Source: a virus (lineage: Duplodnaviria; Heunggongvirae; Uroviricota; Caudoviricetes). From it: DNA of 39,612 bases. The DNA lies in IMG/VR virus record IMGVR_UViG_3300022758_000169; one strand, written 5' to 3'. How positions within the stretch are numbered: position 1 is the stretch's first letter; every line of letters begins with the position of its first letter. A model generated the notes under the pieces. The model searched no databases, was not told the origin of the DNA, and saw nothing but the letters and a program-made list of their open reading frames with translations. Of this stretch, positions 1 through 39,612 are shown in pieces. The position numbers were made by a program, and so were the translations under genes.

Positions 1-357
1 TGGATATCACGCAGGCATTTGCTCACACCGACGATGTAGCAGAACATGGTGGTCAGCTCCGCCGCCGCGCCCGATACGTCGTGCCCGTCGTCCTGTAACT
101 GGTTCAGCAGATTCATCAGCAGTGAGTTCTCCGTCAGGCCGAGAACACCAGATGGGGAATGAATCAGGCTGCGGTAGCCGGGCTTCAGTGGGGCACTGTA
201 GGTTTTGTTCTCTATCTTCATCGCCTGCATTACTGCTGACGCCGTGGCGTTGGCTACCTGGTCGGCAACCATCTTTATGCGTTCTTCTTGCGGGAGCGAG
301 TTTTTTATGTAACTTCCGGTGCGGCGGATCTGAGGAAGAACCTCACCTGTAACCCAT
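1..357. repeat. inverted repeat, left copy (antirepressor C-terminal module); reverse complement of 39256..39612
   Basis: Direct comparison: window start tggatatcacgcaggca is the reverse complement of the window end; about 98 percent identity over 357 bp with roughly 8 mismatches. Confidence 0.9.
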
Positions 358-668
358 TTACGAAAGCGGTAGGGGATAGTGCCTGGTGTCACTGCGTCGC
401 GGCAGCGGAGGATCAGTGTGTAGAGGCCTGACTCGGAGATGATGTTGATCTCTTTTACTCGGCTGTCAAAAATTGCACGATGTTCATGCCCTATGTTGAA
501 CATAGACCTTTCATCATCATCCAGTTTTTCAAGTGCTTGGGTGACGTTTTGGATACGCAGCGCACTACAAACGTCTTGGGCTACAAACCATGGTTGGCCA
601 TCGATAATGATGGAACGGATAGGGTTAACAGATTCAAATTTGAAGATGGAAGTTTGAGCATTAGCCAT
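1..668 (-). CDS. antirepressor, BRO-N-type N-terminal domain plus shared C-terminal module; 3' end cut by window edge
   Basis: ATG at 668..666 preceded by GGAGAT; translation MANAQTSIFKFESVNPIRSIIIDGQPWFVAQDVCSAL...ISESGLYTLIL...FRKWVTGEVLPQIRRTGSY is a BRO-N-like pattern; reading frame open to the window start. Confidence 0.75.
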   Translation of the reverse strand, partial: MANAQTSIFKFESVNPIRSIIIDGQPWFVAQDVCSALRIQNVTQALEKLDDDERSMFNIGHEHRAIFDSRVKEINIISESGLYTLILRCRDAVTPGTIPYRFRKWVTGEVLPQIRRTGSYIKNSLPQEERIKMVADQVANATASAVMQAMKIENKTYSAPLKPGYRSLIHSPSGVLGLTENSLLMNLLNQLQDDGHDVSGAAAELTTMFCYIVGVSKCLRDI

Positions 669-823
669 GGTGGTTATCTCCACTTAGTGATTTTAATCAC
701 CACCGCAACGCCAATTACTGGTGGTGAACTGGACAAGGTTGGCGTACCGGCCTAAGTGGTACCGGCGTCCTTTCGGACCCCTGCCCAGCCCACCATAATT
801 CGGATATAGCTGTGCTTAACGCA

Positions 824-945
824 TAAAAAAACCACGTCTGGCGTGGTATGCGCCACTTAGTAACCCGGGACGCCAATCCCGGCACTGGATTTTGCCAGTG
901 CCCGATTACTATGGCACAAGAGGAGTGCGATGTAAATTTACCGAA
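824..945 (-). ncRNA. candidate structured antisense small RNA (c4-like), copy A
   Basis: Promoter TTGATT-N17-TATTAT on minus strand, predicted three-way-junction fold, hairpin loop UUGGCGU, terminator hairpin CCACG/CGTGG followed by U7; homologous to 38686..38806. Confidence 0.45.
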
Positions 946-952
946 AAGGTAA
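938..952. promoter_or_regulatory. operator-like palindrome TTACCGAAAAGGTAA
   Basis: TTACC-N5-GGTAA overlapping the predicted start of sRNA copy A. Confidence 0.5.
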
Positions 953-1099
953 TAATAGACGAAGATAAATATCAAAATCAACCATATTTGGTTAAGGTGT
1001 ATAAAAGAGCCACCAGCGAGAAATTGTACCGCGATGTAAAATAACGAGCATCTGCTGGCTTACAACCAGCGATGTTTCAAACTTGTCACTACTATCAAC

Positions 1100-1498
1100 G
1101 TGCCATTCCACGGCGTAGAACTTTATGTTGTCAATCACAACGGCGAACCGTACACCCCAATGAAACCTATCGTTGAGGGAATGGGTCTAGACTGGAAATC
1201 TCAACATAAGAAGATTTCTCAACGCTTCTCGAAGGGTATGGTGGAAATCACCATACCTTCTGCCGGAGGGGTGCAAGCCATGATTTGTATGGCTTTACGA
1301 AAATTGGCAGCTTGGTTGAACAGCATCAGTCCAAACAAAGTCCGCCCTGAAATCCGCGATAAGGTAATCCAGTATCAGGAAGAGTGTGATGATGTGCTCT
1401 ACGAGTACTGGACTAAAGGCCATGTGGTTAACCCGCGCAAAGCTAAAAAGGTGTTGCCGGGTAAAATCACGACTGAACAGCAGGAGGTATACACTTAA
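1100..1498 (+). CDS. antirepressor-like protein (recalled P22 antirepressor N-terminal domain pattern)
   Basis: ORF with motif GEPY...EGMGLDWKSQHKKI; divergent from sRNA/antirepressor copy A. Domain assignment from memory. Confidence 0.45.
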   Translation: MPFHGVELYVVNHNGEPYTPMKPIVEGMGLDWKSQHKKISQRFSKGMVEITIPSAGGVQAMICMALRKLAAWLNSISPNKVRPEIRDKVIQYQEECDDVLYEYWTKGHVVNPRKAKKVLPGKITTEQQEVYT

Positions 1499-1523
1499 CA
1501 CTTGATCACATTAGCACAAAATA

Positions 1524-1538
1524 TTACCTTTAAGGTAA
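1524..1538. promoter_or_regulatory. operator-like palindrome TTACCTTTAAGGTAA
   Basis: Perfect TTACC-N5-GGTAA about 20 bp upstream of the ORF at 1559; the same site and leader recur at 38586..38600. Confidence 0.5.
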
Positions 1539-1558
1539 TGTTATTGTGAGGAAAAGCA

Positions 1559-2086
1559 ATGGAAGTTTTCTTAATCATCGTCGGCATCGTGATTATTAAT
1601 TTTGTTTTTTTATTTATTGCAAAAAAACAAAAAAGTAACGATATGCATGTTTCTACAACTGATGATCTTACCTTTGTAGAGCATGCACTGAATGTATCAG
1701 GATATAAACTCACCCCATACGGAGCTGGTGTATCACTCATGTCTTTAAGTAACGGTTTTTCAAAAGAAGAAACATTTTCACATATAGCTTTGATGGCTCT
1801 TTCTCAACACGCCAAAGTCGCAGGTAGTGACGCAATTGAGCTTAGTAAAGTTAGCATTCGTGCGATGTCGATAGCTGAAAACTTAACTAAATTATTCAGG
1901 AAAGGTCTTATTCGATCAGAAATATATAAAAATGATTTGAATGCTATCATGGCTGTCAGCACAATTAATGAAAACCAAGAGGATTGGATTTCCATAGTTC
2001 TGGAAAGCAATAGCACATCTAACAAGGATACTATTGCTTTGCCGATAAGTGCAGAAGCTTCTTTAGAAGCCATAAACAGCCATTGA
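1559..2086 (+). CDS. membrane-anchored hypothetical protein (moron), AT-rich
   Basis: SD GAGGAAAA then ATG; N-terminus MEVFLIIVGIVIINFVFLFIA is a predicted TM helix; AT-rich codon usage; leader and first 13 nt of CDS shared with the gene at 37837..38565. Confidence 0.6.
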   Translation: MEVFLIIVGIVIINFVFLFIAKKQKSNDMHVSTTDDLTFVEHALNVSGYKLTPYGAGVSLMSLSNGFSKEETFSHIALMALSQHAKVAGSDAIELSKVSIRAMSIAENLTKLFRKGLIRSEIYKNDLNAIMAVSTINENQEDWISIVLESNSTSNKDTIALPISAEASLEAINSH

Positions 2087-2107: not shown

Positions 2108-4771
2108 TTAACGCATCACCGGATCCACTTGGTTTATTAGTGGCGCAATCCAGAACAGGTTATTGCCGGGTATCAGGGTTCGGACATTATGCACAATACG
2201 ATCACCGGCATCACCATTCAACACTCCTGAGGTCACATCAATGATGCTATCCGCAAGACCAAATGACGGTCCGAATAGAGATCCTACGAATCCACGACTG
2301 GCATACCTGGACTGTGTGCCAGTGCCAAATAAAGCCCCCAGCCCAACAGCACCACCAGTCGCCTTTTCAGCCATGTTGTTATATTCCATCAATGGCCCAA
2401 GAATACCGGATCTATCTATACCCTCAAGCACCAGCTTCTCTGGTGACCAGTCAACATTTTTCCCTTTCGATGCTTCTTTAAGCGCATAGACCAGTGAGCC
2501 AAGAGCAATCTGAAATGCAGTGCCATAATAAAATTGCGCAGTTCCTTCCTGTAACCCACCAAGTAGCGCACGGTTGTATGAAGCCGTTGTGAATGATTTA
2601 AACTGAAATATCGTTCGCCCCATTGGAGTACTCGCCCATAAAGGTGTGTCACCAATACCGGGGGTGATGATAGTGTTATTAACGTCTTTCAGAACCGCTG
2701 ACTGGAATACTCCGGCAACGTACTGATCGTCCCATTTATCAAAGTTACCAATGTGCCATCCATCAATTACCTCACCATGTTTCTCGAACTCACTGCGAAT
2801 ACGCGCAGCCATATTGTCGTTGATACCGAGTTTTGCCATGCGACGTGCAGAAAACGCACCGGACAAAATACCGTCTGACGTGAGCATTCCGTTCATGGAT
2901 TTGTTTATGTCATTAAATCGATCCATGAGTGTCAGCTTGCCGAAGGCATCAGTAATTCGCTCCATTCCTGCTTCGACTGCTGTTGTCCTGGAAGAACTGT
3001 CAACAAGATCACCAATTGCACGAGAACGTGAATGTAGTACAGCTTCCAATCCAATCCCCATCTTCAACATATCTTCTTTGCTGGCCTTAAATGCCGGTGA
3101 TTGGGATATCTGAGAAGCATAGCCTTTCATGGTGTTACGGAAACCATTAACCATAACCCCTCTGGCCAGATCTGGAATAGCTGATACTGTCATTCCACCG
3201 AGTTTGGTCGTGAAGTTCACATCCCGCAGAAAAGCGCCAGCACGAACAAAAAACGAAGACGGATCATCAGGCATCCCATATGTACCAACAAGACGATCGC
3301 GTAATGCTGTTATGTCTCTGAGATCATTTGCTCTTGATTTTGAAAGTCTGGACTGTTCTTTCCGTAATTCCTTTTCGTACTTTCGCATTAATGAATCGAG
3401 TTTACCCTGAGGAACAACTTCACCATTGCTCTCATAACGTGCTTTCAGATTTGCCACACTTTCGTCATATTTCGCCTTTATTTTTTCAGGCACTTCCCGT
3501 AACAGACTGTCATATTCGTCCTCAATTAATTGCAGACGCTCTGTCATAGTTCGTTTGCCAAATGTTCTCGTCAACTCAATTTCTGCTGCCGCTTCACGGA
3601 TATGACGTTGTAGAACGTAATTCACATCACTTTCGAGATAATCCCTGATAAGACTATCAGGCACATTTAATGTTCTTTCTTTCGTACTACCTGCGGCTTT
3701 TACAGAAAATACGCTGACAAAATCCTGTGGAACCTTAGCACCAGTAATTTTATTAATTACGATATCCGCTGCAATTTCAGCATCCTCAGGATCCAGTGTT
3801 TTATTGCCTCTCGACCACCAGTCAACCAAAATACGTCGAAATTTATCGCGTTCACTGATTATTTTTCCAACTTTATATATACGTGGGAAATAGCTTGCCT
3901 GGCCTAATGCTTTCAGTTCTTCATCTGGAGGCAATAAACCAAGCTTTTGCATTTCAACCTTCACCCGATTTAATACAGTTCGCATCGCCTGCGCCGTTTC
4001 CTGAACAACAGGATTAGCATGCACATCACCGCTTCGCATAGCATTCCCAACCTGCTGACGAAATGAATCAAAACTCATGTCACCACCATCAGCTTTATAC
4101 TTTGCGTATGCCTGTTTATTTCCGACAACAACAGCAGCTTCTTCACGCTGCCATCCACGTGTACGGGTTTCTACAGCTACCGGTGTTTCAATCCCCCTTT
4201 CATTTCCTTTAAGGGTGAAATTATTTTCGGCTAACTCCAGCGTTGTTTTTCGCACTGTCTTGGACGGAGACTCCATTAACCTTGTCAAAGGAGTAAGATA
4301 GCTCCCTGCTTTCCATGCAGCCTTTCCAACCACCCCACCGGAAACAGGGGTTAAATCATCCAGAGTCGCTGTATCAATTTTCATAGCACCAACACTACCA
4401 CCATCAGAAAGCGAAGCGGCAGCCCTGTCAGTCGCTGATGTAATGCTCATATTATCAAGAGCATCAGCAACCTCACGCGTGGCTGCAGCCCGGACGGATG
4501 GCGAAAGCGCAACACCAGCACTGGCAAACACGCCGCTCATCATCGCACCCGCTGCAATGTGAGCGGCACTTTCACCCCATGAGCGTGTTATTTGCTGATT
4601 ATTCAGCACAACCTCGCTTAATGCTGTACCGGCTGCACCAATCGCAATCTGTGAGCCAATACGCGCCAGTGCCCCTCCTTGAGCACCGGGGATAAACATT
4701 GACGCAACAGTAACCGGATCCATTCCCGCAGCAATACTGGCAAGGGTTCCAACTACGCCAGCATCAGACAA
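2108..4771 (-). CDS. large internal virion / ejection protein (887 aa)
   Basis: Long ORF at the distal end of the virion operon, Gly/Ala-rich N-terminus; position analogous to T7-like internal core proteins. Confidence 0.55.
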   Translation of the reverse strand: MSDAGVVGTLASIAAGMDPVTVASMFIPGAQGGALARIGSQIAIGAAGTALSEVVLNNQQITRSWGESAAHIAAGAMMSGVFASAGVALSPSVRAAATREVADALDNMSITSATDRAAASLSDGGSVGAMKIDTATLDDLTPVSGGVVGKAAWKAGSYLTPLTRLMESPSKTVRKTTLELAENNFTLKGNERGIETPVAVETRTRGWQREEAAVVVGNKQAYAKYKADGGDMSFDSFRQQVGNAMRSGDVHANPVVQETAQAMRTVLNRVKVEMQKLGLLPPDEELKALGQASYFPRIYKVGKIISERDKFRRILVDWWSRGNKTLDPEDAEIAADIVINKITGAKVPQDFVSVFSVKAAGSTKERTLNVPDSLIRDYLESDVNYVLQRHIREAAAEIELTRTFGKRTMTERLQLIEDEYDSLLREVPEKIKAKYDESVANLKARYESNGEVVPQGKLDSLMRKYEKELRKEQSRLSKSRANDLRDITALRDRLVGTYGMPDDPSSFFVRAGAFLRDVNFTTKLGGMTVSAIPDLARGVMVNGFRNTMKGYASQISQSPAFKASKEDMLKMGIGLEAVLHSRSRAIGDLVDSSSRTTAVEAGMERITDAFGKLTLMDRFNDINKSMNGMLTSDGILSGAFSARRMAKLGINDNMAARIRSEFEKHGEVIDGWHIGNFDKWDDQYVAGVFQSAVLKDVNNTIITPGIGDTPLWASTPMGRTIFQFKSFTTASYNRALLGGLQEGTAQFYYGTAFQIALGSLVYALKEASKGKNVDWSPEKLVLEGIDRSGILGPLMEYNNMAEKATGGAVGLGALFGTGTQSRYASRGFVGSLFGPSFGLADSIIDVTSGVLNGDAGDRIVHNVRTLIPGNNLFWIAPLINQVDPVMR

Positions 4772-16732: not shown

Positions 16733-16822
16733 ATCAATGACTCCGTACGCAATTAAATTATTACCAATTTAACCACATATGATTTATTTATCGTAGACAG
16801 TTGACATTTAACGCGCGAATTA

Positions 16823-16837
16823 TTACCTTTCAGGTAA
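16823..16837. promoter_or_regulatory. operator-like palindrome TTACCTTTCAGGTAA with TTGACA 17 bp upstream
   Basis: Perfect TTACC-N5-GGTAA; TTGACA at 16801..16806. Confidence 0.5.
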
Positions 16838-17159
16838 CCAAAGAGTTCATTCCGGTTACTAACCTGACTGGCTTGTCGTTAAATTGAACAGGTGGAGTGA
16901 GCTTTTATTTTGAGCAGTACGGCGTATGGCACATGCGCCGATAGCGGTCTGGATGCGTTTAAGGGGCACCCTCCCTGGCTGTGGCAAACGAACCAGGTAG
17001 CCGGAATGTGCAAGTCGAGCGGTTTTATTCCGCGCACGGGGATTCACCATCCCGGCGATTCGGTGTGACGCCTCGGAAGAGACGAGGGTACAACGATGAG
17101 AGCATTTATGGAGCCGCGACAAAGTGTGGCGCCTTAACAGGCTAAGTGCTCTCAGCGTT

Positions 17160-17236
17160 GTGGCATTAGCTCAGTTGGACAGAGCAACCGCCTTCTAAGC
17201 GGTTGGTCGCAGGTTCGAATCCTGCATGCCACGCCA
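17160..17236 (+). tRNA. tRNA-Arg (anticodon UCU), phage-encoded
   Basis: Manual cloverleaf: acceptor GTGGCAT/ATGCCAC, D-stem GCTC/GAGC, anticodon stem ACCGC/GCGGT with loop CTTCTAA, T-arm GCAGG-TTCGAAT-CCTGC, discriminator G, encoded CCA. Confidence 0.85.
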
Positions 17237-17398
17237 GAATCACGCCTAAGGACCGTGATGCCAGAAGTTCCAGGTGCTTGGCGGTGATGGTTTCCCTTGA
17301 AGGACTATCACCGCCCTTTTACAGCAGGACGCCATTGCGATGACTTCATGCTGTAAACCAGTACAGCCACGGAAGGCATAACTCATTGCTTCCAGTTC

Positions 17399-17421
17399 GC
17401 CCGGTTCGCCGGGCATTTTTT
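17399..17421 (+). terminator. intrinsic terminator or attenuator (UUCG tetraloop hairpin plus U6)
   Basis: GCCCGG-ttcg-CCGGGC followed by ATTTTTT, ending just before the SD of the ORF at 17434. Confidence 0.5.
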
Positions 17422-17433
17422 AAAGGTGAGATC

Positions 17434-17856
17434 ATGAAGACAATTGATATGTTGGCTAAGTATCTAAATGAATGGCCATTAAAATATTCTCGTATCGTTC
17501 AGGCTGAAGACTGCATTTTTTATGGCGTTTTTGCTGGTAATGAAATGCATTACGAAGTAATTCAGAGTGAGGGACTGGCCGGGTTAACTCTTAGCGAAGA
17601 CCATGGTACTAGCGTTACGTACCATGACTGGATTTCAGCGCAGAAAACTGAAATGGAAAAAGGCAATGTGTTTGATATTTCTCGCGCTGTATACGCCAAA
17701 GAAAAAAGTGATGATGATTACATGCGCGAAAACTTATACAACATGAAGTTACAATGCCTGGCTGAAGTGCTTAGTAAAAGATCTTTACTTGATGTGGTTG
17801 GTGCTGAGCAGGACGCCAAGGCAATCAACGCCGCATTCGATAAAATAACCTTCTAA
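17434..17856 (+). CDS. hypothetical protein (moron, opposite strand to virion genes)
   Basis: SD AAAGGTGAG then ATG; 140-aa ORF; flanked by tRNA upstream and terminator downstream. Confidence 0.6.
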   Translation: MKTIDMLAKYLNEWPLKYSRIVQAEDCIFYGVFAGNEMHYEVIQSEGLAGLTLSEDHGTSVTYHDWISAQKTEMEKGNVFDISRAVYAKEKSDDDYMRENLYNMKLQCLAEVLSKRSLLDVVGAEQDAKAINAAFDKITF

Positions 17857-29564: not shown

Positions 29565-29888
29565 AATCACGCCTGACGAATCGCGATTATCTCGCTATTG
29601 GTATTGCAGAGATTGCTGGACTCAATGGCGCATGATTTGACAATGCCGCCAGAGCTATCGCATACTGACCGCACTAGAAAACAAACAGCGGTCATCCGCA
29701 CCCGATAGCTTTGCGGCTTTTTTATGCCTGCAATCTGGCATAGTCACATCCGTACAAAGGTCGGGTGGAGAGGCGTAATACAACACCCGAAAGGGGAATA
29801 TGCCCGGAGCTACTGTTTGTGCTCTAGTTGACACCCGATCACCAGCTACTAACTGGTTTTCGTAACTAAAAACAAACAGGAGGTCATC

Positions 29889-30545
29889 ATGACCAGTCAA
29901 CTCATCCCCGTATTCAACGGCACTATATCTAACGAAACAGCCCTACTTTGTAATGCCCGCGATCTGCACGCTTTTTTAGGTGTTAAAAAGGTGTTTGCAG
30001 CATGGATTACAAATCGCATATCAGAATACGAATTCATTGAAAATCAAGACTATATTTTGCTTTCCAATTTGGGAAAGCAAACATCTGGTAGAGGCGGCCA
30101 CAACCGCAAAGAGTACCACCTCACCCTTGATACAGCCAAAGAGCTGGCGATGGTCGAGCGTAACGAAAAAGGTCGCCAGGTGCGACGCTACTTCATTGAA
30201 TGCGAGAAACGTTTAAGACAACAAGAAACAAAAGTGGAGAAGGTCTTGTCAGGCTTCATGCCCGCCATTATGGAGGCGATCAAGCTGGAAGACAAAAAAG
30301 AATACAGTGCCCCACTGAAGCCCGGCTACCGCAGCCTGATTCACTCGCCGTCTGGTGTTCTCGGCCTGACGGAGCACTCACTGCTGATGAATCTGCTGAA
30401 CCAGTTACAGGACGACGGGCACGACGTATCGGGCGCGGCGGCGGAGCTGACCACCATGTTCTGCTACATCGTCGGTGTGAGCAAATGCCTGCGTGATATC
30501 CAGACTCACGCGGAGTACATCAACGACAAGGCAGGGTTCTTCTGA
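29889..30545 (+). CDS. antirepressor (AntA/KilA-N-like N-terminal domain plus shared C-terminal module)
   Basis: Strong SD AGGAGG; C-terminal 68 aa nearly identical at DNA level to the two terminal copies. Confidence 0.7.
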
Positions 30546-34217: not shown

Positions 34218-34244
34218 CCCGCAATATTTTGCGGGCTTTTTTTT
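34218..34244 (+). terminator. plus-strand intrinsic terminator with no annotated upstream plus-strand gene
   Basis: CCCGCAA-uauu-UUGCGGG followed by U8; overlaps the tailspike stop codon on the other strand. Confidence 0.45.
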
Positions 34245-37200
34245 AACGTTCTTCCAGAGACTGAACCCGCTCTTTTATCTTATCCATTTCTCTGCGCTGC
34301 CATGCTGCCTCGATATAGAATAAGAGATCAGGTCTGACCCCCCATCTAGATCCTGCTGGCGTTATTTCAACGCGCTCAATGATGTCTTCTATTACCATCA
34401 CTGGATTATCATCCTCATCAACAATGATGCTCCCGTCATTATCAGTCAGCGGCATTTCCCTTTGGCCAGTAATGACGTCATCATATACTGCGGGATAATC
34501 GTCATAGCAAAGAAAGGCATAGCGGCATGTTGTGCTTTCTTCTTCCATGAGTCCGTGAGAAATAAGAACATCACGAAGTTGCTGCGCGATTACACCATGA
34601 TGTATCCTCGCCCCTTCTTCCCCCTTTATAGCGACAGCGTTCAGCCATTTATAAGCGATATACCTGACGTCACCCCAGGCATCCAGCAATGCTTCGTCAG
34701 GAGAGACCGGCTCTGTCTTTAATGTTCCGTCACTGGTAACCACAGGATTGGAGCCAAGATAAACTGTCGAGAACCTGTTTCCCGGACCACCAAGAGCATT
34801 TACATTATCAAGATAAGGTTTAACATCTCCGTTCTCAAAAAGATGTTCGAGTGCGTTATATACCGCGCGACGTGGAGTACTGCTTCCGGAACCATGCAAC
34901 GTTATCATTGCACCATCTGCTGAAGACGTTGTTTCACCGCCGCTAACGATTAATCTCTGAGCGGTAACATCATCAGACGGTACTTTCTTCGCAATAATGG
35001 CGTAATTACCCTCAAGTTTGACTTCCGCGCGAACTTGTCCTGATGTACCTGCATGGACAGTCAGTGACTGGACGGCAACATCATCTGTGAAATCAACGGG
35101 TACAGGAACCGTCCTCACGCCTGACGTCGACATAAAAGTAGGAAGCGTTCTGTTAGGAGTGGCTCCGTAGACAAAATCCCTTGAAACAAATTCTTCCTGT
35201 TTAATTTTCACCCTGAAACAATACAAATCAGCCGGGTGACCATCGTGAACATAAGGATATTTTCTGTTGTTATCCCCTATGCTCCATGGGTTTAGAAAGT
35301 CTTCCCCACCGAAAATGTAGTACAGCCAGTTGTCTTTGATACAAACTGAACCAACACCAACCGCAGAGTTAACTATTCCGCCCTGATAAATCTGATCAGT
35401 AACATTAACCCACTCTACATTATCCAGACTCCACTCATTGACGTTAACTCTGGTCATAAATGTTCTTGGATAATTTCCTGCATAACGGTTATCAGGTTCT
35501 CCTCCTTCCCACTCACCAAATGCGCGCTCACTGCCAAAAATAATCAGCTCATCGCCAACTTTGGCAAAAGGAAGGTTTGAGTGATGAACATTATTTGGGA
35601 AGCGAAGAGAATTCCATGATGTACCTAAATCAGAGCTTCTGTGCAATGAACTACCGGGTTGAGTACTTAATGTCCCCCTGGTCGTCAGATACAGAATGCC
35701 ATCATAATATTTTACACATGGCTCAGATGCATTCGCCTCATATTCTGCAGGTATGCGTCTGCGAACAAAGCTACCAGGAGAACCGAAAGCATCAGAGAAA
35801 TAGAGTATCCCAAGCTCGCGTGGACCAATATCACCATTATGGTAGCCAACAGCAAAACTGTTATCGCTAATCGTCGCAAAACTGTGAATCTCAGTAACAG
35901 GAGTGCTTCCGTCAACAAAAGAAGGAATAGTTCCAAGACTGGTTTTTCTCCATGGTGACGAGTGAAATGATGTACCAAAACTCCAGTATCTACCCTCGTT
36001 ATTCTGATCCACATCCTGGGTATTTTGCGTCGTAACTGTAAAAGTATTTTTATCAATAACAGTAGTCACCGTCATATTCCCGGTAACACCTGTAACACCA
36101 GAGTTTGAGAAGTTGACAAAATCACCAGCAAATAATCCGTGATCAGTAATGCGAATATAAGCGACTTGCTGATTTGCTGCTTTCGTTATACCACCATAAA
36201 CGCGAAGGCTGCGACTCATTGGGCGATCCCACAACTCTGCAACCTGCAGTTTATTTCCGCTCACGGTCCGCGTCTCAATTACAGCAAAAAGGCGATTTCT
36301 GACAACCCCCATACTCATGCAGTGATAGTTAACTGTGGGATAGTTTTCATGTAAATCTGTAAGCCATTCCGGCGTTGTCCAGGTCTTCCCGTCATCTCCT
36401 GAGCGAACCCATGCAACATGGAGGTTATTTACACCATGGCGGTCTCCAGCCATAAAAGGCGCATAGATGACATTGTCATATACAAACGTTTTATCCTGCG
36501 TCCAGGCGTTGTACCACGGTGTATCTGTAATTTTAAATAACTCTCCCTGGATAAAATCTTCAGAAGCATAAAAAAGAGGCTGACCCGGTATTCTCTCAAA
36601 TAAAAAACGAGCATTTTTAAATCGACTGACATCCGGAAGAGTTGATACTTTAAAAGTAAGCCCTAATCCGTCAATTTTATAACCTGGAGATGAGGCTTCA
36701 AGGCACGCGCTTATTGCAGTGGAATCGTCATTTATACCATCACCAACAGCTCCAAAATCTTTGGGGCTAATAGCATCACGCATTTTATCCTGGAACGTTC
36801 GGTACACAGCCCCAGAACCATACTGAATAAACCAACCAAAACCACCAACAACCCCGGCGATTGCAGCATCGACATAATTACGCATTGAGCGATTATTTAC
36901 AGCGTCCTGCTCAAATGATGGATCTGCAAGGTTAGAAATTTTGTTTTGCTTTGCATCGTAATATTTTGCAAGCAAAGATGGTTTCATCAATGCACGTCTG
37001 AACCACCCAAAACATTGCTGGATCAGCATCGTCAGGTAGTCAAAGGCATCTTCATGCACTTCGGGGAAAAATTTTCCCTGATTGCGAAGGTCTGTCTCCT
37101 GCACTACATCAAGCACACGATCTATCGTAATTCGCCATCCAGTAGCAAGCGGAGACGGAAGAACCACAGAACCGCCACTATAAGTGCCCGCCCCAGTTAC

Positions 37201-37362
37201 CGTATAACCGGTATCCAGAACCAATTCTGTTACGTTTCCGTTCAGGTCAGACACCTGAACAACCAGGTCTGATTTTCTGAAAATTCGAAAAGTATACGGA
37301 AACGATGTCGTAACGCCGTTACCGGTGTATTCGTTGTGGTCAACTTCGGTTGAGACCGTCAT
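34243..37362 (-). CDS. tailspike with Asp-box (BNR) motifs and C-terminal self-cleaving chaperone-like domain
   Basis: 1039 aa; N-terminus MTVSTEVDHNEYTGNGVTTSFPYTF; Asp-boxes SGDDGKTW and SDLGTSW; C-terminal VVTSDGTLK with the Ser codon at 34732..34734. Confidence 0.8.
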   Translation of the reverse strand: MTVSTEVDHNEYTGNGVTTSFPYTFRIFRKSDLVVQVSDLNGNVTELVLDTGYTVTGAGTYSGGSVVLPSPLATGWRITIDRVLDVVQETDLRNQGKFFPEVHEDAFDYLTMLIQQCFGWFRRALMKPSLLAKYYDAKQNKISNLADPSFEQDAVNNRSMRNYVDAAIAGVVGGFGWFIQYGSGAVYRTFQDKMRDAISPKDFGAVGDGINDDSTAISACLEASSPGYKIDGLGLTFKVSTLPDVSRFKNARFLFERIPGQPLFYASEDFIQGELFKITDTPWYNAWTQDKTFVYDNVIYAPFMAGDRHGVNNLHVAWVRSGDDGKTWTTPEWLTDLHENYPTVNYHCMSMGVVRNRLFAVIETRTVSGNKLQVAELWDRPMSRSLRVYGGITKAANQQVAYIRITDHGLFAGDFVNFSNSGVTGVTGNMTVTTVIDKNTFTVTTQNTQDVDQNNEGRYWSFGTSFHSSPWRKTSLGTIPSFVDGSTPVTEIHSFATISDNSFAVGYHNGDIGPRELGILYFSDAFGSPGSFVRRRIPAEYEANASEPCVKYYDGILYLTTRGTLSTQPGSSLHRSSDLGTSWNSLRFPNNVHHSNLPFAKVGDELIIFGSERAFGEWEGGEPDNRYAGNYPRTFMTRVNVNEWSLDNVEWVNVTDQIYQGGIVNSAVGVGSVCIKDNWLYYIFGGEDFLNPWSIGDNNRKYPYVHDGHPADLYCFRVKIKQEEFVSRDFVYGATPNRTLPTFMSTSGVRTVPVPVDFTDDVAVQSLTVHAGTSGQVRAEVKLEGNYAIIAKKVPSDDVTAQRLIVSGGETTSSADGAMITLHGSGSSTPRRAVYNALEHLFENGDVKPYLDNVNALGGPGNRFSTVYLGSNPVVTSDGTLKTEPVSPDEALLDAWGDVRYIAYKWLNAVAIKGEEGARIHHGVIAQQLRDVLISHGLMEEESTTCRYAFLCYDDYPAVYDDVITGQREMPLTDNDGSIIVDEDDNPVMVIEDIIERVEITPAGSRWGVRPDLLFYIEAAWQRREMDKIKERVQSLEER

Positions 37363-37481: not shown

Positions 37482-37556
37482 TTTGCAAAACGTGCTGGAT
37501 AGCAAACAAATTATTTGATACTGTATAAATATCAGTTATTGCATGGAGAAGATAAG

Positions 37557-37814
37557 ATGCAGCAGTATCACTATCCACTGGAAGACGGATTTACCGAAAG
37601 GATTCACACGCCGGGAGGCGTCAGGTCACTGGTGGAGGGATCGCACTTGATGAAATTACTCCGGGATCTCGATAAGGATGGATTTAATGTCGATGGCCCA
37701 CTTGCCGAACTGACTGCACTGATTAACTACGTCACCAGCTCACAGATGTCTATGCAGGATCTGCAAACACATCTCGACTATTGTGCCGAACAATTACGAA
37801 AACAAACCCGGTAA
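37557..37814 (+). CDS. hypothetical protein (85 aa)
   Basis: SD GGAGAAG then ATG; convergent with the gene at 37837..38565. Confidence 0.45.
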   Translation: MQQYHYPLEDGFTERIHTPGGVRSLVEGSHLMKLLRDLDKDGFNVDGPLAELTALINYVTSSQMSMQDLQTHLDYCAEQLRKQTR

Positions 37815-37820
37815 ATTTAA

Positions 37821-37838
37821 AGGCCGCAAGAGCGGCCT
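37821..37838. terminator. hairpin between convergent genes
   Basis: AGGCCGC-aaga-GCGGCCT. Confidence 0.35.
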
Positions 37839-38565
37839 ATCGTTTCGCTTTGTGCTCGTCCCAGCACGTTTTGCACCATGCCATTAAGCCGTCCGCATTT
37901 TGATTATTAGGGTAAAAGCTGGTCCGTTTTCTGCGGACATTACAAATTGGGCACCACTTCATATGGCGTGTATTCTTTGGGCCATCGAGACACCTTGCAC
38001 ACCACTTAGTCAATCCATCTGGATTTTTTGACGATTTCCGGAATTTGTCATATGGAAGGTTTATTCTGCATCGCAAACACTGCTTGCGGCCACTTGAAAC
38101 TCTGTTAGCTGATTCTTCTTTTGGCGGCGATACAGAAGGTATTCTTGCTGGCTCTGATACTGCCTGAGGTGCTTTTTTAGATGACTGAGACGATATGTCA
38201 TCACCAGGGAATCTTCCATGATATGCCGGACGCGTTGACACTCCAGGTGGAAGCTCAGCTGTAAACGGCTTTGGCTGAATCAGTTGCCTCTCTTTTGCTA
38301 ACTCCTGCTGTTTATAATATGTCTGGATTACCGCACTATCATAAGCAGGAGGTACGGAAATATCAGGCGCGTTACCTCCAGTTTTTTGAAAATGAGTAGA
38401 TGTGTGTTCTATCACCTGTGTACGACTAATCGTTACCTCCCCATCTTCGGTCTTTATCGTTTTGTTCTGATTAACGACCGTACGATCAGAGATCTTAGTC
38501 TTGTTCTGGTTGATAACGTAAATAATCACCGCAACCACACCAACAACTATCCAGAAAACTTCCAT
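37837..38565 (-). CDS. membrane-anchored protein with C-terminal double Cys4 repeats (moron)
   Basis: N-terminus MEVFWIVVGVVAVIIYVI is a predicted TM helix; C-terminal repeats CLRC...WCARC and CPIC...WCKTC; promoter, leader and start shared with the ORF at 1559. Confidence 0.55.
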   Translation of the reverse strand: MEVFWIVVGVVAVIIYVINQNKTKISDRTVVNQNKTIKTEDGEVTISRTQVIEHTSTHFQKTGGNAPDISVPPAYDSAVIQTYYKQQELAKERQLIQPKPFTAELPPGVSTRPAYHGRFPGDDISSQSSKKAPQAVSEPARIPSVSPPKEESANRVSSGRKQCLRCRINLPYDKFRKSSKNPDGLTKWCARCLDGPKNTRHMKWCPICNVRRKRTSFYPNNQNADGLMAWCKTCWDEHKAKR

Positions 38566-38585
38566 TGCTTTTCCTCACAATAACA

Positions 38586-38600
38586 TTACCTTAAAGGTAA
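38586..38600. promoter_or_regulatory. operator-like palindrome TTACCTTAAAGGTAA
   Basis: Upstream of the minus-strand gene at 38565; mirror of the site at 1524..1538. Confidence 0.5.
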
Positions 38601-38678
38601 TATCTTGCTTTCAGGTGATCAAGCGTTAAACGCAATCAACCAAATACGGTTGATTTTAATATTTCTTCGCGTTTATCA

Positions 38679-38693
38679 TTACCTTTGCGGTAA
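38679..38693. promoter_or_regulatory. operator-like palindrome TTACCTTTGCGGTAA overlapping the sRNA promoter
   Basis: Promoter TTGATT (38651..38656) - N17 - TATCAT (38674..38679); the site covers the predicted start. Confidence 0.5.
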
Positions 38694-38806
38694 ATTTACA
38701 TCGCACTCCTCTTGTGCCATAGTAATCGGGCACTGGCAAAATCCAGTGCCGGGATTGGTCTCCCGGATTACTACAGAGGCACATATGCCGCATAAGCGGT
38801 TTTTTT
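38686..38806 (+). ncRNA. candidate structured antisense small RNA (c4-like), copy B
   Basis: Predicted fold: outer stem 38713..38718/38778..38783, stem 38721..38727/38766..38772, hairpin 38729..38750, hairpin 38751..38764 with loop UUGGUC, then terminator hairpin plus U7 (38800..38806). Confidence 0.5.
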
Positions 38807-38960
38807 ATGTGTAAAGCGCACCTATTCTATGGTGGGCTGTGTGGGGGCACCGAAAGGTGCGCCGGGTTCCTTTGTAGCCGGTAAGACCAACTCTGCACAG
38901 TTCACCACCATCTGATTGGTCTCAGCGGTGGTGATTAACCTAACTACAAAGGTGATCGCC

Positions 38961-39612
38961 ATGAATACCAAACCTTCCATCTTTTCCTTTGAGTTATCCT
39001 GCCAGATCCGTATGTTCATGATTGACGGAGAACCTTGGTTTGTCACCAAAGATGTGTGCAATGCTTTGAATATTGATGTTACACAAGCGAGAAAACTTGA
39101 TAAAAAAGGGCTGGAACAAAAAGGGGGTCTGTATTCAATACAGACCCCTGGTGGAATACAAGAACTATCCATCGTTTCAGATCAGGTCTCTACATCCTTA
39201 TTCTGCGTTGCAAAGAGGCAATGACTGAGGGAACGAGAGCATTCAGATTTCTTGAATGGGTTACAGGTGAGGTTCTTCCTCAGATCCGCCGCACCGGAAG
39301 TTACATTAAAAACTCGCTCCCGCAGGAAGAACGCATAAAGATGGTTGCCGACCAGGTAGCCAACGCCACGGCGTCAGCAGTAATGCAGGCGATGAAGATA
39401 GAGAACAAAACCTACAGTGCCCCGCTGAAGCCCGGCTACCGCAGCCTGATTCATTCGCCGTCGGGTGTTCTCGGCCTGACGGAGCACTCACTGCTGATGA
39501 ATCTGCTGAACCAGTTACAGGACGACGGGCACGACGTATCGGGCGCGGCGGCGGAGCTGACCACCATGTTCTGCTACATCGTCGGTGTGAGCAAATGCCT
39601 GCGTGATATCCA
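38961..39612 (+). pseudogene. antirepressor (BRO-N plus shared C-terminal module), frame-disrupted by a 1-nt deletion near 39182; 3' end cut by window edge
   Basis: BRO-N frame (MNTKPSIFSF...) stops at 39224; homology continues in the +2 frame (SGLYILILRCKEAMTEGTRAFRFLEWVTGEV...); copy A has GAGTCAGGC where this copy has GATCAGGT. Confidence 0.55.
39256..39612. repeat. inverted repeat, right copy; a third direct copy of the last ~200 bp lies at 30302..30501
   Basis: Direct comparison with 1..357 and with 30302..30501 (about 3 mismatches over 200 bp). Confidence 0.9.

What the first reader, a model, noticed from the sequence alone, without database searches (positions are those of the whole stretch)
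1500..2086. Two membrane-anchored morons with identical promoter, operator, leader and start but different bodies
The segment ATTACCTTTAAGGTAATGTTATTGTGAGGAAAAGCAATGGAAGTTTTCT, preceded by a conserved TTGATCAC, is identical upstream of the gene at 1559..2086 (plus strand) and the gene at 37837..38565 (minus strand). Both proteins begin MEVF plus a hydrophobic helix and then diverge completely: one is an AT-rich 175-aa protein, the other a 242-aa protein with two C-terminal Cys4 repeats. Same-regulation, different-payload cassettes at mirrored positions next to the immunity modules are candidates for superinfection exclusion or other lysogen-benefit functions; the function is unknown.
Basis: partly seen in the sequence, partly recalled or inferred. 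Interest (0 to 1): 0.65.

Follow-up and report, generated by a model that had tools for sequence, protein, structure and literature searches.

The report
Shared repressor-gated start, two membrane proteins
Two unrelated accessory genes of an E. coli temperate phage share the same repressor-controlled promoter, leader and membrane-anchor start, a real but fairly ordinary case of phage gene-cassette swapping whose function is still unknown.

Summary
A 49-nt stretch (1523-1571 and 38553-38601 reverse) is identical in front of, and into, two intact ORFs of 175 aa and 242 aa. The two proteins share only about 22 N-terminal residues.

The window is an epsilon15/phiV10-like K1 podophage genome cut inside an inverted repeat. 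In complete E. coli genomes the two genes lie about 5 kb apart, flanking two convergent P1-type immI modules (isrK, C4 RNA, Bro-N antirepressor).

The "operator" ATTACC-N5-GGTAAT occurs 16 times in the window (1.2 expected) in front of most operons, so I read it as the phage's general operator. In seven diverged lineages a TTGAnn hexamer lies exactly 15 nt upstream of it, which places the -10 (TACCTT) inside the operator. Both genes are therefore predicted to be shut off in the lysogen and switched on at infection or induction. That is not the behaviour of classical lysogen-expressed morons.

Both products look like single-pass inner-membrane proteins with cytoplasmic domains: tandem zinc ribbons of the kind found at the N-termini of HNH endonucleases, or an uncharacterised helical domain. 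In related phages the two families alternate in the same slot, next to the last internal-virion gene.

Function is untested. Exclusion of incoming DNA at the membrane is my leading guess.

The parts
1502..1507 (+). -35-like hexamer TTGATC of the left cassette
   Evidence: Read directly from the sequence. A TTGAnn hexamer lies exactly 15 nt upstream of the operator in 7 diverged lineages.
1523..1539 (+). Perfect 17-bp operator ATTACCTTTAAGGTAAT. Its left half supplies the predicted -10, TACCTT, at 1525-1530.
   Evidence: The pattern occurs 16 times in the window against 1.2 expected, and 15 times in phiV10. Geometry.
1523..1571 (+). The 49-nt stretch identical to 38553-38601 on the minus strand: operator, 19-nt leader with GAGG Shine-Dalgarno (1548-1551), and the first 13 nt of the ORF.
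1559..2086 (+). 175-aa gene: N-terminal transmembrane helix (about residues 3-21) plus a helical cytoplasmic domain. AT-rich. Matches phrog_21690 (unknown function).
1100..1498 (+). Remnant of a P22-type antirepressor (P22_AR_N domain only), lying between the isrK promoter and the left cassette.
   Evidence: Pfam E 5e-44. RefSeq annotates the homologue as a pseudogene missing its C-terminus.
937..953 (-). Operator at the left isrK-C4-ant promoter (TTGATT, 18-nt spacer, TATTAT on the minus strand).
717..901 (-). Left isrK (825-901) and C4 antisense RNA (717-800).
   Evidence: Rfam hits above the gathering scores.
1..668 (-). Left Bro-N antirepressor gene. Its 3' end is cut off by the window edge.
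37837..38565 (-). 242-aa gene: transmembrane helix 3-20, conserved beta-hairpin 26-55, helix 77-93, disordered Pro/Ser linker, and a tandem Cys4 zinc-ribbon domain at 160-241. Matches phrog_6762 (unknown function).
38585..38601 (-). Perfect operator of the right cassette.
38617..38622 (-). -35-like TTGATC of the right cassette.
37821..37838 (-). GC-rich hairpin (terminator-like, weak T tract) overlapping the stop codon of the 242-aa gene.
38678..38694 (+). Operator at the right isrK-C4-ant promoter (TTGATT, 18-nt spacer, TATCAT).
38730..38912 (+). Right isrK (38730-38806) and C4 antisense RNA (38825-38912).
38961..39612 (+). Right Bro-N antirepressor gene. It is out of frame through three homopolymer indels and is cut off by the window edge.
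37515..37814 (+). Small gene like phiV10 gp24 / epsilon15 gp19, convergent with the 242-aa gene.
   Evidence: phrog_450; synteny
2108..4771 (-). Gene for a large internal-virion protein occupying the position of phiV10 gp20 (no detectable sequence relation to gp20 tested; called 'gp20-like' here for position only), convergent with the 175-aa gene.
   Evidence: Synteny.

Best explanation
The two ORFs are real accessory genes of an epsilon15/phiV10-like temperate podophage. They sit in the variable island between the last internal-virion (ejection) gene and the tailspike module, on either side of two convergent P1-type immI modules.

They share an expression and anchoring cassette made of:
- a sigma-70 -35 hexamer (TTGATC);
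- a 15-nt spacer;
- a perfect copy of the phage's genome-wide 17-bp operator, whose left half doubles as the -10 (TACCTT);
- a short leader with a GAGG ribosome-binding site;
- a start that encodes the beginning of a single N-terminal transmembrane helix.

The two unrelated bodies are alternative payloads behind this cassette. In other lineages either family occupies the same slot, next to the last internal-virion gene. The exact 49-nt identity in this genome reflects recent recombination or gene conversion between the two copies.

Inferred: the prophage repressor (ORF 25083-25667) occupies the operator and blocks RNA polymerase. Both genes would then be silent in the lysogen and switched on with the antirepressor and early operons at infection or induction.

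Inferred: the products insert N-out/C-in and hold their cytoplasmic domains at the inner face of the membrane. One domain is a tandem zinc ribbon of the type found at the N-termini of viral HNH and endonuclease VII proteins. The other is a helical domain from an uncharacterised family with more than 120 representatives.

Most speculative: they act at the DNA-entry site early in infection, for example to exclude superinfecting DNA.
For: Cassette and bodies:
- Identity and ORFs.
- Bodies unrelated.
- Both genes under purifying selection, pN/pS 0.27 and 0.38.

Operator:
- 16 sites against 1.2 expected, 15 sites in phiV10, in front of most operons including the repressor/cro intergenic region.
- The candidate repressor has HTH domains.
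- Over-expressing the homologous repressor in phage ZX5 cut lysis-gene transcripts by about 10^4-fold: PMC9782041.

Promoter geometry:
- TTGAnn, 15 nt, then operator is conserved although spacers and leaders differ. It holds in both arms of the window, the Enterobacter/Citrobacter-type group (L123-L128), L129, Serratia L064, Providencia L066 (variant palindrome), and L268, which carries a 175-family gene.

Same slot, alternative occupants:
- In non-E. coli relatives the 242-family gene is convergent with the gp20-position gene.
- In L268 a 41%-identical 175-family gene with the same cassette is in that position.

Genome closure: complete genomes MS8345 and UTME-12.

Topology and domains:
- One hydrophobic helix followed by KKQK or NKTK.
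- AlphaFold model with the zinc-ribbon domain at pLDDT above 90.
- BFVD matches to the zinc modules of HNH and endonuclease VII proteins, E about 3e-7.
- PHROG hits.
- Size of the 175-domain family.

Accessory status: absent from phiV10; present in 6 and 129 of 5426 complete E. coli genomes.
Against: - No transcription start, repressor binding or expression data exist for these genes. The -10 TACCTT matches only 3 of 6 consensus positions.
- In one relative (L069) the 242-family gene lies 12 nt downstream of an mnt-like gene in a P22-type immI module. By analogy with P22 mnt it should then be made in the lysogen.
- In a Buttiauxella island (L068) the gene has an operator-free, consensus-like promoter. 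So expression in the repressed state cannot be excluded.
- The 175-aa model is poor (pLDDT 55).
- No library links either protein to a function.
- Assigning the operator to the CI-like repressor is an inference from site distribution.
Confidence: 0.55

Rival explanations
1. These are classical morons. Both genes are expressed from the repressed prophage and protect the lysogen, for example by SieA-like exclusion of incoming podophage DNA at the inner membrane.
For: - Each gene has its own promoter, and the 242-aa gene has a terminator-like hairpin.
- The 175-aa gene is AT-rich.
- The slot corresponds to where P22 keeps sieA and immI, between ejection gene 16 and tailspike gene 9 (my own knowledge of the P22 map). 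[quoted passage not shown]
- The L069 homologue sits in an mnt operon, and the L068 homologue has an operator-free promoter.
Against: - A perfect copy of the genome-wide operator covers the predicted -10 and start site. This arrangement is conserved in seven lineages, and the same operator guards the antirepressor promoter, which must be off in a lysogen.
- No homology to SieA or any exclusion or defence family.
- One transmembrane helix here against three in SieA.
Confidence: 0.22
2. The genes are early lytic host-takeover or regulatory factors rather than exclusion proteins. Examples would be a Kil/Icd-like inhibitor of cell division, or a membrane tether that sequesters DNA, the repressor or the antirepressor during the lysis-lysogeny switch.
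For: - Co-regulated with, and adjacent to, antirepressor modules.
- P1 keeps the division inhibitor icd inside its immI operon (my own knowledge).
- Zinc-ribbon modules of this type accompany DNA-acting enzymes.
- The 175-type domain is fused to N-termini that look like winged helices in other proteins. This is my reading of the sequences; Pfam gave no hit.
Against: There is no homology to Kil, Icd or any regulator. The genes are dispensable for the phage type, since phiV10 lacks both. The C4 RNAs show no pairing with their leaders.
Confidence: 0.15
3. The shared 5' end has no functional meaning. It is a scar of an inverted duplication or gene conversion, and the 175-aa ORF is a fortuitous or decaying fusion.
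For: The arms are inverted repeats that are 86-92% identical elsewhere. The 175-aa gene is rare, in 6 of 5426 genomes that are nearly identical to each other.
Against: - pN/pS is 0.27 between diverged copies.
- A 41%-identical homologue with the same cassette and the same neighbour exists in another element.
- The soluble domain belongs to a family with 123 representatives.
Confidence: 0.05
4. It is an assembly artefact. The two copies are one locus that an assembler duplicated at the contig ends.
For: The window begins and ends with a 127-nt perfect inverted repeat, which is typical of a contig broken at a repeat.
Against: Complete chromosomes (MS8345, UTME-12) carry both cassettes about 5 kb apart with different payloads. 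One IMG/VR contig also holds both (L019).
Confidence: 0.01

Closest known systems
Phage morons and accessory-gene hot spots (lambdoid and HK97-type, sensu Hendrix and Juhala)
   Same: Self-contained genes with their own promoter, inserted between conserved genes, absent from close relatives, of atypical base composition, and with alternative unrelated occupants in one slot.
   Different: Classical morons are transcribed from the repressed prophage. Here a perfect repressor operator overlaps the promoter. The alternative occupants also share the translational start and the type of membrane anchor, not just the flanks.
P22 sieA / immI region, and SieA exclusion
   Same: A podophage with an inner-membrane accessory protein encoded next to the antirepressor module, between the ejection-protein genes and the tailspike.
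   Different: No sequence similarity, and one transmembrane helix plus a large cytoplasmic domain against three helices in SieA. sieA is expressed from the prophage. The immI here is P1-type (isrK/C4/Bro-N), not mnt/arc/ant.
[quoted passage not shown]
   Same: A small protein with an N-terminal membrane anchor, made early in infection rather than by a prophage. This is the timing predicted here.
   Different: No homology. T4 is virulent. The comparison is only a functional analogy.
P1 C1 regulon and P1 immI (c4-icd-ant)
   Same: A single repressor with many operators scattered over the genome, including one at the antirepressor operon. A C4 antisense RNA has loops that pair with the ant leader.
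   Different: The operator sequence and the repressor differ, and the phage morphotype is different. The two genes studied here have no P1 counterpart.
N-terminal zinc-ribbon modules of viral HNH / endonuclease VII / Stc1-domain proteins
   Same: Tandem CxxC...(D/N)G...WCxxC units, with structural matches at E about 1e-7 and PHROG profile matches.
   Different: No nuclease domain follows, and the module is tethered to the membrane by a long disordered linker. The Pfam Stc1 score (21.4) is below the gathering threshold (24.8).

Membership tests
Moron (Hendrix/Juhala sense) | Own promoter | tested here: met
   Predicted from sequence only: TTGATC, 17-nt spacer, TACCTT, with the geometry conserved in 7 lineages.
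Moron (Hendrix/Juhala sense) | Own terminator | tested here: inconclusive
   The 242-aa gene has a GC-rich hairpin with a weak T tract. None was found after the 175-aa gene.
Moron (Hendrix/Juhala sense) | Insertion absent from close relatives, with atypical composition | tested here: met
   phiV10 lacks both genes. GC is 35.4% (175-aa gene) and 44.6% (242-aa gene) against 48.3% for the window.
Moron (Hendrix/Juhala sense) | Transcribed from the repressed prophage | not testable with these tools
   The sequence argues against it, because a perfect operator lies over the -10 and +1. RNA-seq of a lysogen is needed.
SieA-type superinfection exclusion proteins | Sequence homology to a SieA type | tested here: not met
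   The only PHROG full-length matches are the proteins' own unknown-function families, and there are no Pfam, NCBIfam or PADLOC matches. No direct pairwise comparison with SieA was run.
SieA-type superinfection exclusion proteins | Polytopic inner-membrane protein (three transmembrane segments) | tested here: not met
   Each protein has a single hydrophobic segment. The SieA description comes from PMC10883804.
SieA-type superinfection exclusion proteins | Blocks DNA injection by related phages | not testable with these tools
   Needs phage challenge and K+ efflux or DNA-entry assays.
Stc1 / HNH-N-terminal zinc-ribbon module (242-aa protein, residues 160-241) | Two Cys4 units with the conserved spacing | tested here: met
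   All 8 Cys are invariant in 28 homologues. Model pLDDT is above 90. BFVD matches at E 3e-7.
Stc1 / HNH-N-terminal zinc-ribbon module (242-aa protein, residues 160-241) | Passes the Pfam Stc1 gathering score | tested here: not met
   21.4 bits against a cut-off of 24.8.
HNH / endonuclease VII nucleases | Catalytic nuclease domain | tested here: not met
   PHROG matches cover only the zinc-ribbon part of those profiles, and the protein ends at residue 242 right after the second ribbon.
Regulon of the phage's repressor (ATTACC-N5-GGTAAT operator) | Operator copy overlapping the promoter | tested here: met
   Zero-mismatch sites at 1523 and 38585. The site is enriched 13-fold in the window and in phiV10.
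Regulon of the phage's repressor (ATTACC-N5-GGTAAT operator) | Repressor binds the site and represses transcription | not testable with these tools
   Needs EMSA or footprinting and reporter assays.
   No such hit in Pfam, PHROGs, PDB or BFVD.

The most novel reading that the evidence does not exclude
Epsilon15-like phages carry a modular, repressor-gated 'membrane-tether' cassette: promoter, operator and an MExFW transmembrane anchor, onto which unrelated cytoplasmic effector domains are swapped. The resulting proteins would be a new class of early-expressed factors acting at the cytoplasmic face of the DNA-entry site, either excluding superinfecting DNA or countering host defence.
Probability: 0.2. 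Interest if true: 0.6.

Novelty: new member of a known kind. Interest (0 to 1): 0.35.

Why it matters
If the prediction holds, these genes are accessory cargo wired into the main immunity circuit rather than expressed by the prophage. Annotating them as "morons" would then misstate when they act.

The 242-aa family occurs in about 2% of complete E. coli genomes and across Enterobacterales. Neither it nor the 175-type domain family has any known function. A membrane-tethered tandem zinc ribbon switched on at infection is an easily testable candidate for exclusion or anti-defence at the site of DNA entry.

The locus is also a clean natural example of payload swapping behind a fixed regulatory and anchoring cassette.

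Tried and rejected
- Profile searches in Pfam, NCBIfam and PADLOC gave nothing informative for either protein.
- PDB sequence searches, with single sequences and with profiles, gave only chance-level hits. A weak match to the PacI N-terminal zinc site (E 0.69) was not relied on.
- Foldseek against the PDB found nothing at E below 0.9.
- The 175-aa AlphaFold model was too poor (pLDDT 55) to search with.
- The exact-leader and operator-plus-start pattern scans of IMG/VR found only the two known payload types plus chance hits, so there is no third payload there.
- The same pattern in one-genome-per-species contigs gave only chance hits in unrelated taxa.
- The scan for the Providencia variant palindrome gave mostly chance hits and a single site in the relevant contig. 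I could not show that it is that phage's general operator.
- I tested whether the C4 or isrK RNAs pair with the shared leader. They do not.
- An alternative promoter (TTAACA/G, 16-nt spacer, CAAAAT/CAAGAT) was rejected as the main one because it is not conserved in other lineages.
- The epsilon15 genome paper (Kropinski 2007), which I believe discusses these operators, is not held. Searches by protein accession found no paper.
- Context look-ups for distant 175-family members returned contigs too short to use.
- I first thought the MEVF start was native only to the 242-aa family. I softened this after finding 175-family members that begin MEIFW, MTTFW and MKIFL.

Full report
**Observation.** Weaker similarity extends over 1495-1584 / 38540-38629 (90 nt, 86%). 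Both ORFs are intact: 1559..2086, 175 aa, and 37837..38565, 242 aa. The proteins align only over about the first 22 residues (hhalign) and not at all beyond that (BLASTP E 2.9). Each has a single strongly hydrophobic N-terminal segment followed by basic residues, KKQK or NKTK...R. The 175-aa gene is 35.4% GC against 48.3% for the window. The 242-aa protein ends in two CxxC...WCxxC units.

**What the window is.**
- DNA matches point to epsilon15/phiV10-like podophages (TL-2011b, phiV10, ZX5 and others).
- The window carries an integrase, a two-HTH repressor candidate (25083-25667), an SLT-domain internal-virion protein and an endosialidase (K1-type) tailspike.
- Its two ends are an inverted repeat (1-431 vs 39182-39612, 92%), and the first 127 nt are identical. 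That looks like a contig broken at a repeat.
- The complete chromosomes of E. coli MS8345 and UTME-12 show how the circle closes. The order is: tailspike (-), gp24-like (+), 242-aa gene (-), isrK/C4/Bro-N ant (+), about 1 kb of small genes, Bro-N ant (-)/C4/isrK, a P22_AR_N pseudogene (+), 175-aa gene (+), then the large internal-virion gene (-).
- So the 'mirrored' genes are really about 5 kb apart and flank two convergent antirepressor modules. An assembly artefact is excluded.

**The neighbours.** Rfam finds isrK and C4 antisense RNA, above their gathering scores, upstream of each Bro-N antirepressor gene. This is the architecture of P1 immI. In each arm the two C4 loop sequences are complementary to that arm's own ant leader:
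- right arm: CCTTTGTAG / CTACAAAGG and AGACCAA / TTGGTCT;
- left arm: CCACTTAG / CTAAGTGG and ACGCCAA / TTGGCGT.

The two modules therefore have different antisense specificities. Neither C4 RNA pairs with the shared leader of the two genes under study.

**The operator.**
- ATTACC-N5-GGTAAT (up to 2 mismatches) occurs 16 times in the window against 1.2 expected, and 15 times in phiV10 against 1.0 expected.
- The sites lie in front of most operons. These include the repressor/cro-like intergenic region, the early-left operon, replication genes, terminase, a tRNA, integrase, the tailspike/gp24 region, both isrK-C4-ant promoters and both genes studied here.
- The two copies in front of the 175-aa and 242-aa genes are perfect palindromes.
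- I infer that this is the operator of the phage's lysogenic repressor, in a dispersed regulon like that of P1 C1. Over-expressing the homologous repressor in phage ZX5 reduced lysis-gene transcripts about 10^4-fold (PMC9782041). That is consistent with the inference but does not show direct binding.

**The promoter.**
- In both arms TTGATC lies exactly 15 nt upstream of the operator. With a 17-nt spacer the -10 is then TACCTT, inside the operator's left half.
- The same geometry, with different hexamer variants, spacers and leaders, is found in front of 242-family homologues in five other settings:
  - an Enterobacter/Citrobacter/Salmonella-type group (TTGACC);
  - another lineage, L129 (TTGATC);
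  - Serratia (TTGAAC);
  - Providencia (TTGAAT/TTGAAC, with a variant palindrome ATTAACC-N5-GGTTAAT);
  - L268, in front of a 175-family homologue (TTGATT).
- It also occurs at the window's own site at 16822 (TTGACA).
- This comparative conservation is the best evidence available here that the promoter is real and that operator control is selected.
- It predicts repression in the lysogen and co-induction with ant and the early operons.
- There are counter-examples. In L069 the homologue follows an mnt-like gene by 12 nt. In a Buttiauxella island it has an operator-free TTGACG, 18-nt spacer, TATTAT promoter.

**The two families.**
- The 242-aa family has 32 clusters at 90% identity across Enterobacterales. 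Its conserved parts are ME[VI]FWIVVGVV, a juxtamembrane beta-hairpin, and the C-terminal double zinc ribbon with all eight Cys invariant. The Pro/Ser-rich linker is variable.
- The AlphaFold model is confident for the helix and the zinc-ribbon domain. That domain resembles the N-terminal zinc modules of viral HNH, endonuclease VII and Stc1-domain proteins (BFVD E about 3e-7; PHROG profile hits). No nuclease domain is present, and Pfam Stc1 scores below threshold.
- The 175-aa protein has few close relatives. A full HMM scan shows that its soluble domain belongs to a family with 123 representatives. The domain is often C-terminal in longer proteins that have no Pfam domains.
- Other membrane-anchored members of the 175 family begin MEIFWVVVGV, MTTFW and MKIFL. 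The 47%-identical P0008/P0009 begin differently.
- Both genes are under purifying selection (pN/pS 0.27 and 0.38).
- Both are accessory: 6 and 129 of 5426 complete E. coli genomes carry them, and phiV10 has neither.

**Same slot, alternative payloads.**
- In non-E. coli relatives the 242-family gene lies convergent with the last internal-virion gene (the phiV10 gp20 position). That is the position the 175-aa gene holds in this window.
- In L268, a degraded epsilon15-like element, a 41%-identical 175-family gene occupies that same position behind the same cassette. It even has the GTGACATGTCAC palindrome seen upstream of the -35 in the Enterobacter-type group.
- The two families are therefore long-standing alternative occupants of one slot behind one regulatory and anchoring cassette.
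- The perfect 49-nt identity within this genome is most simply explained by recent recombination or gene conversion. Neighbouring repeat segments are only 86-92% identical.
- In IMG/VR no third payload was found behind the cassette.

**Function.** Nothing links either protein to a known function. By the positive-inside rule the domains are cytoplasmic, which fits a Cys4 zinc module.
- My leading mechanistic guess is an action at the inner face of the membrane early in infection, such as interference with incoming DNA. The closest analogies are T4 Imm in timing and P22 SieA in genome position and membrane location (PMC10883804).
- These alternatives can be separated by lysogen versus induction transcriptomics, repressor-binding assays, topology fusions and phage-challenge experiments.

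**Verdict.** This is a real, well-defined feature and a tidy example of cassette exchange. It is of a known general kind (phage accessory genes at a variable locus) and its function is unknown. The interpretation needs one correction: the shared operator argues that these genes belong to the repressor regulon, so they are probably not lysogen-expressed morons.

Noticed in passing
1-431 and 39182-39612 (the first 127 nt are identical): The window ends are an inverted repeat inside the 3' parts of two convergent Bro-N antirepressor genes. The window looks like a circular phage genome whose contig broke at this repeat. In MS8345 and UTME-12 about 1-1.25 kb of small genes bridge the gap, including a YafO-family toxin in UTME-12 and TL-2011b.
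   Followed up: yes
717-901 (-) and 38730-38912 (+), with the ant leaders at 640-716 and 38913-38990: There are two P1-type immI modules in one phage. Their C4 loop sequences covary with their own ant-leader targets (9+7 nt in the right arm, 8+7 nt in the left), which implies two different antisense immunity specificities, as between P1 and P7.
   Followed up: partly
38961-39612, indels near 39102-39182: The right Bro-N antirepressor is out of frame because of three homopolymer-length differences that MS8345, UTME-12 and an IMG/VR contig lack. This is either a real pseudogene or a sequencing error.
   Followed up: partly
937, 1523, 16822, 19967, 19985, 22659, 22721, 24623, 25011, 25723, 25785, 31871, 37466, 38585, 38678 (33577 is doubtful): The 17-bp operator ATTACC-N5-GGTAAT is spread genome-wide. 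It occurs with two promoter geometries. In one the -35 ends 15 nt upstream, so the -10 lies inside the operator. In the other the -35 ends 21-22 nt upstream, so the operator sits at +1, as at the early-left and isrK promoters.
   Followed up: partly
1100-1498 (+): A truncated P22-type antirepressor (N-terminal domain only, GTG start) is wedged between the left isrK promoter and the left cassette. It is 96% identical to the ant gene of phage CUS-3.
   Followed up: partly
29759-29848 and 29889-30545 (+): A third antirepressor gene (AntA/AntB domain) is preceded by an Rfam sRNA-Xcc1 match. Its 3' end (30290-30502) repeats the 3' end of the two Bro-N genes at 96% identity.
   Followed up: no
16822-17856 (+): An operator-controlled promoter (TTGACA, 15 nt, operator) points against the late genes towards a tRNA (17160-17233) and a 156-aa ORF with no Pfam match. 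This is another inserted cassette between the portal and terminase genes.
   Followed up: no
37515-37814 (+): The small gp24/gp19-like gene next to the tailspike belongs to phrog_450. That family also matches the C-terminal about 70 residues of the Bro-N antirepressors, so it may be a free-standing antirepressor C-terminal domain.
   Followed up: no
L123-L128 and L268 (related loci), just upstream of the -35: A perfect 12-bp palindrome, GTGACATGTCAC, precedes the cassette in the Enterobacter/Citrobacter-type relatives and in L268, but not in the E. coli version. It may be a second regulatory site.
   Followed up: no
34243-37362 (-): The tailspike is a complete endosialidase (all five Pfam endosialidase domains). 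The phage therefore targets K1-capsulated E. coli, unlike phiV10 and epsilon15.
   Followed up: partly
L005 (MS8345) against the window: The Bro-N gene type that sits next to the 242-aa gene in the window sits next to the 175-aa gene in MS8345. In L070 a single module combines the window's left-type Bro-N with an identical 242-aa gene. The modules are being reshuffled among closely related prophages.
   Followed up: partly
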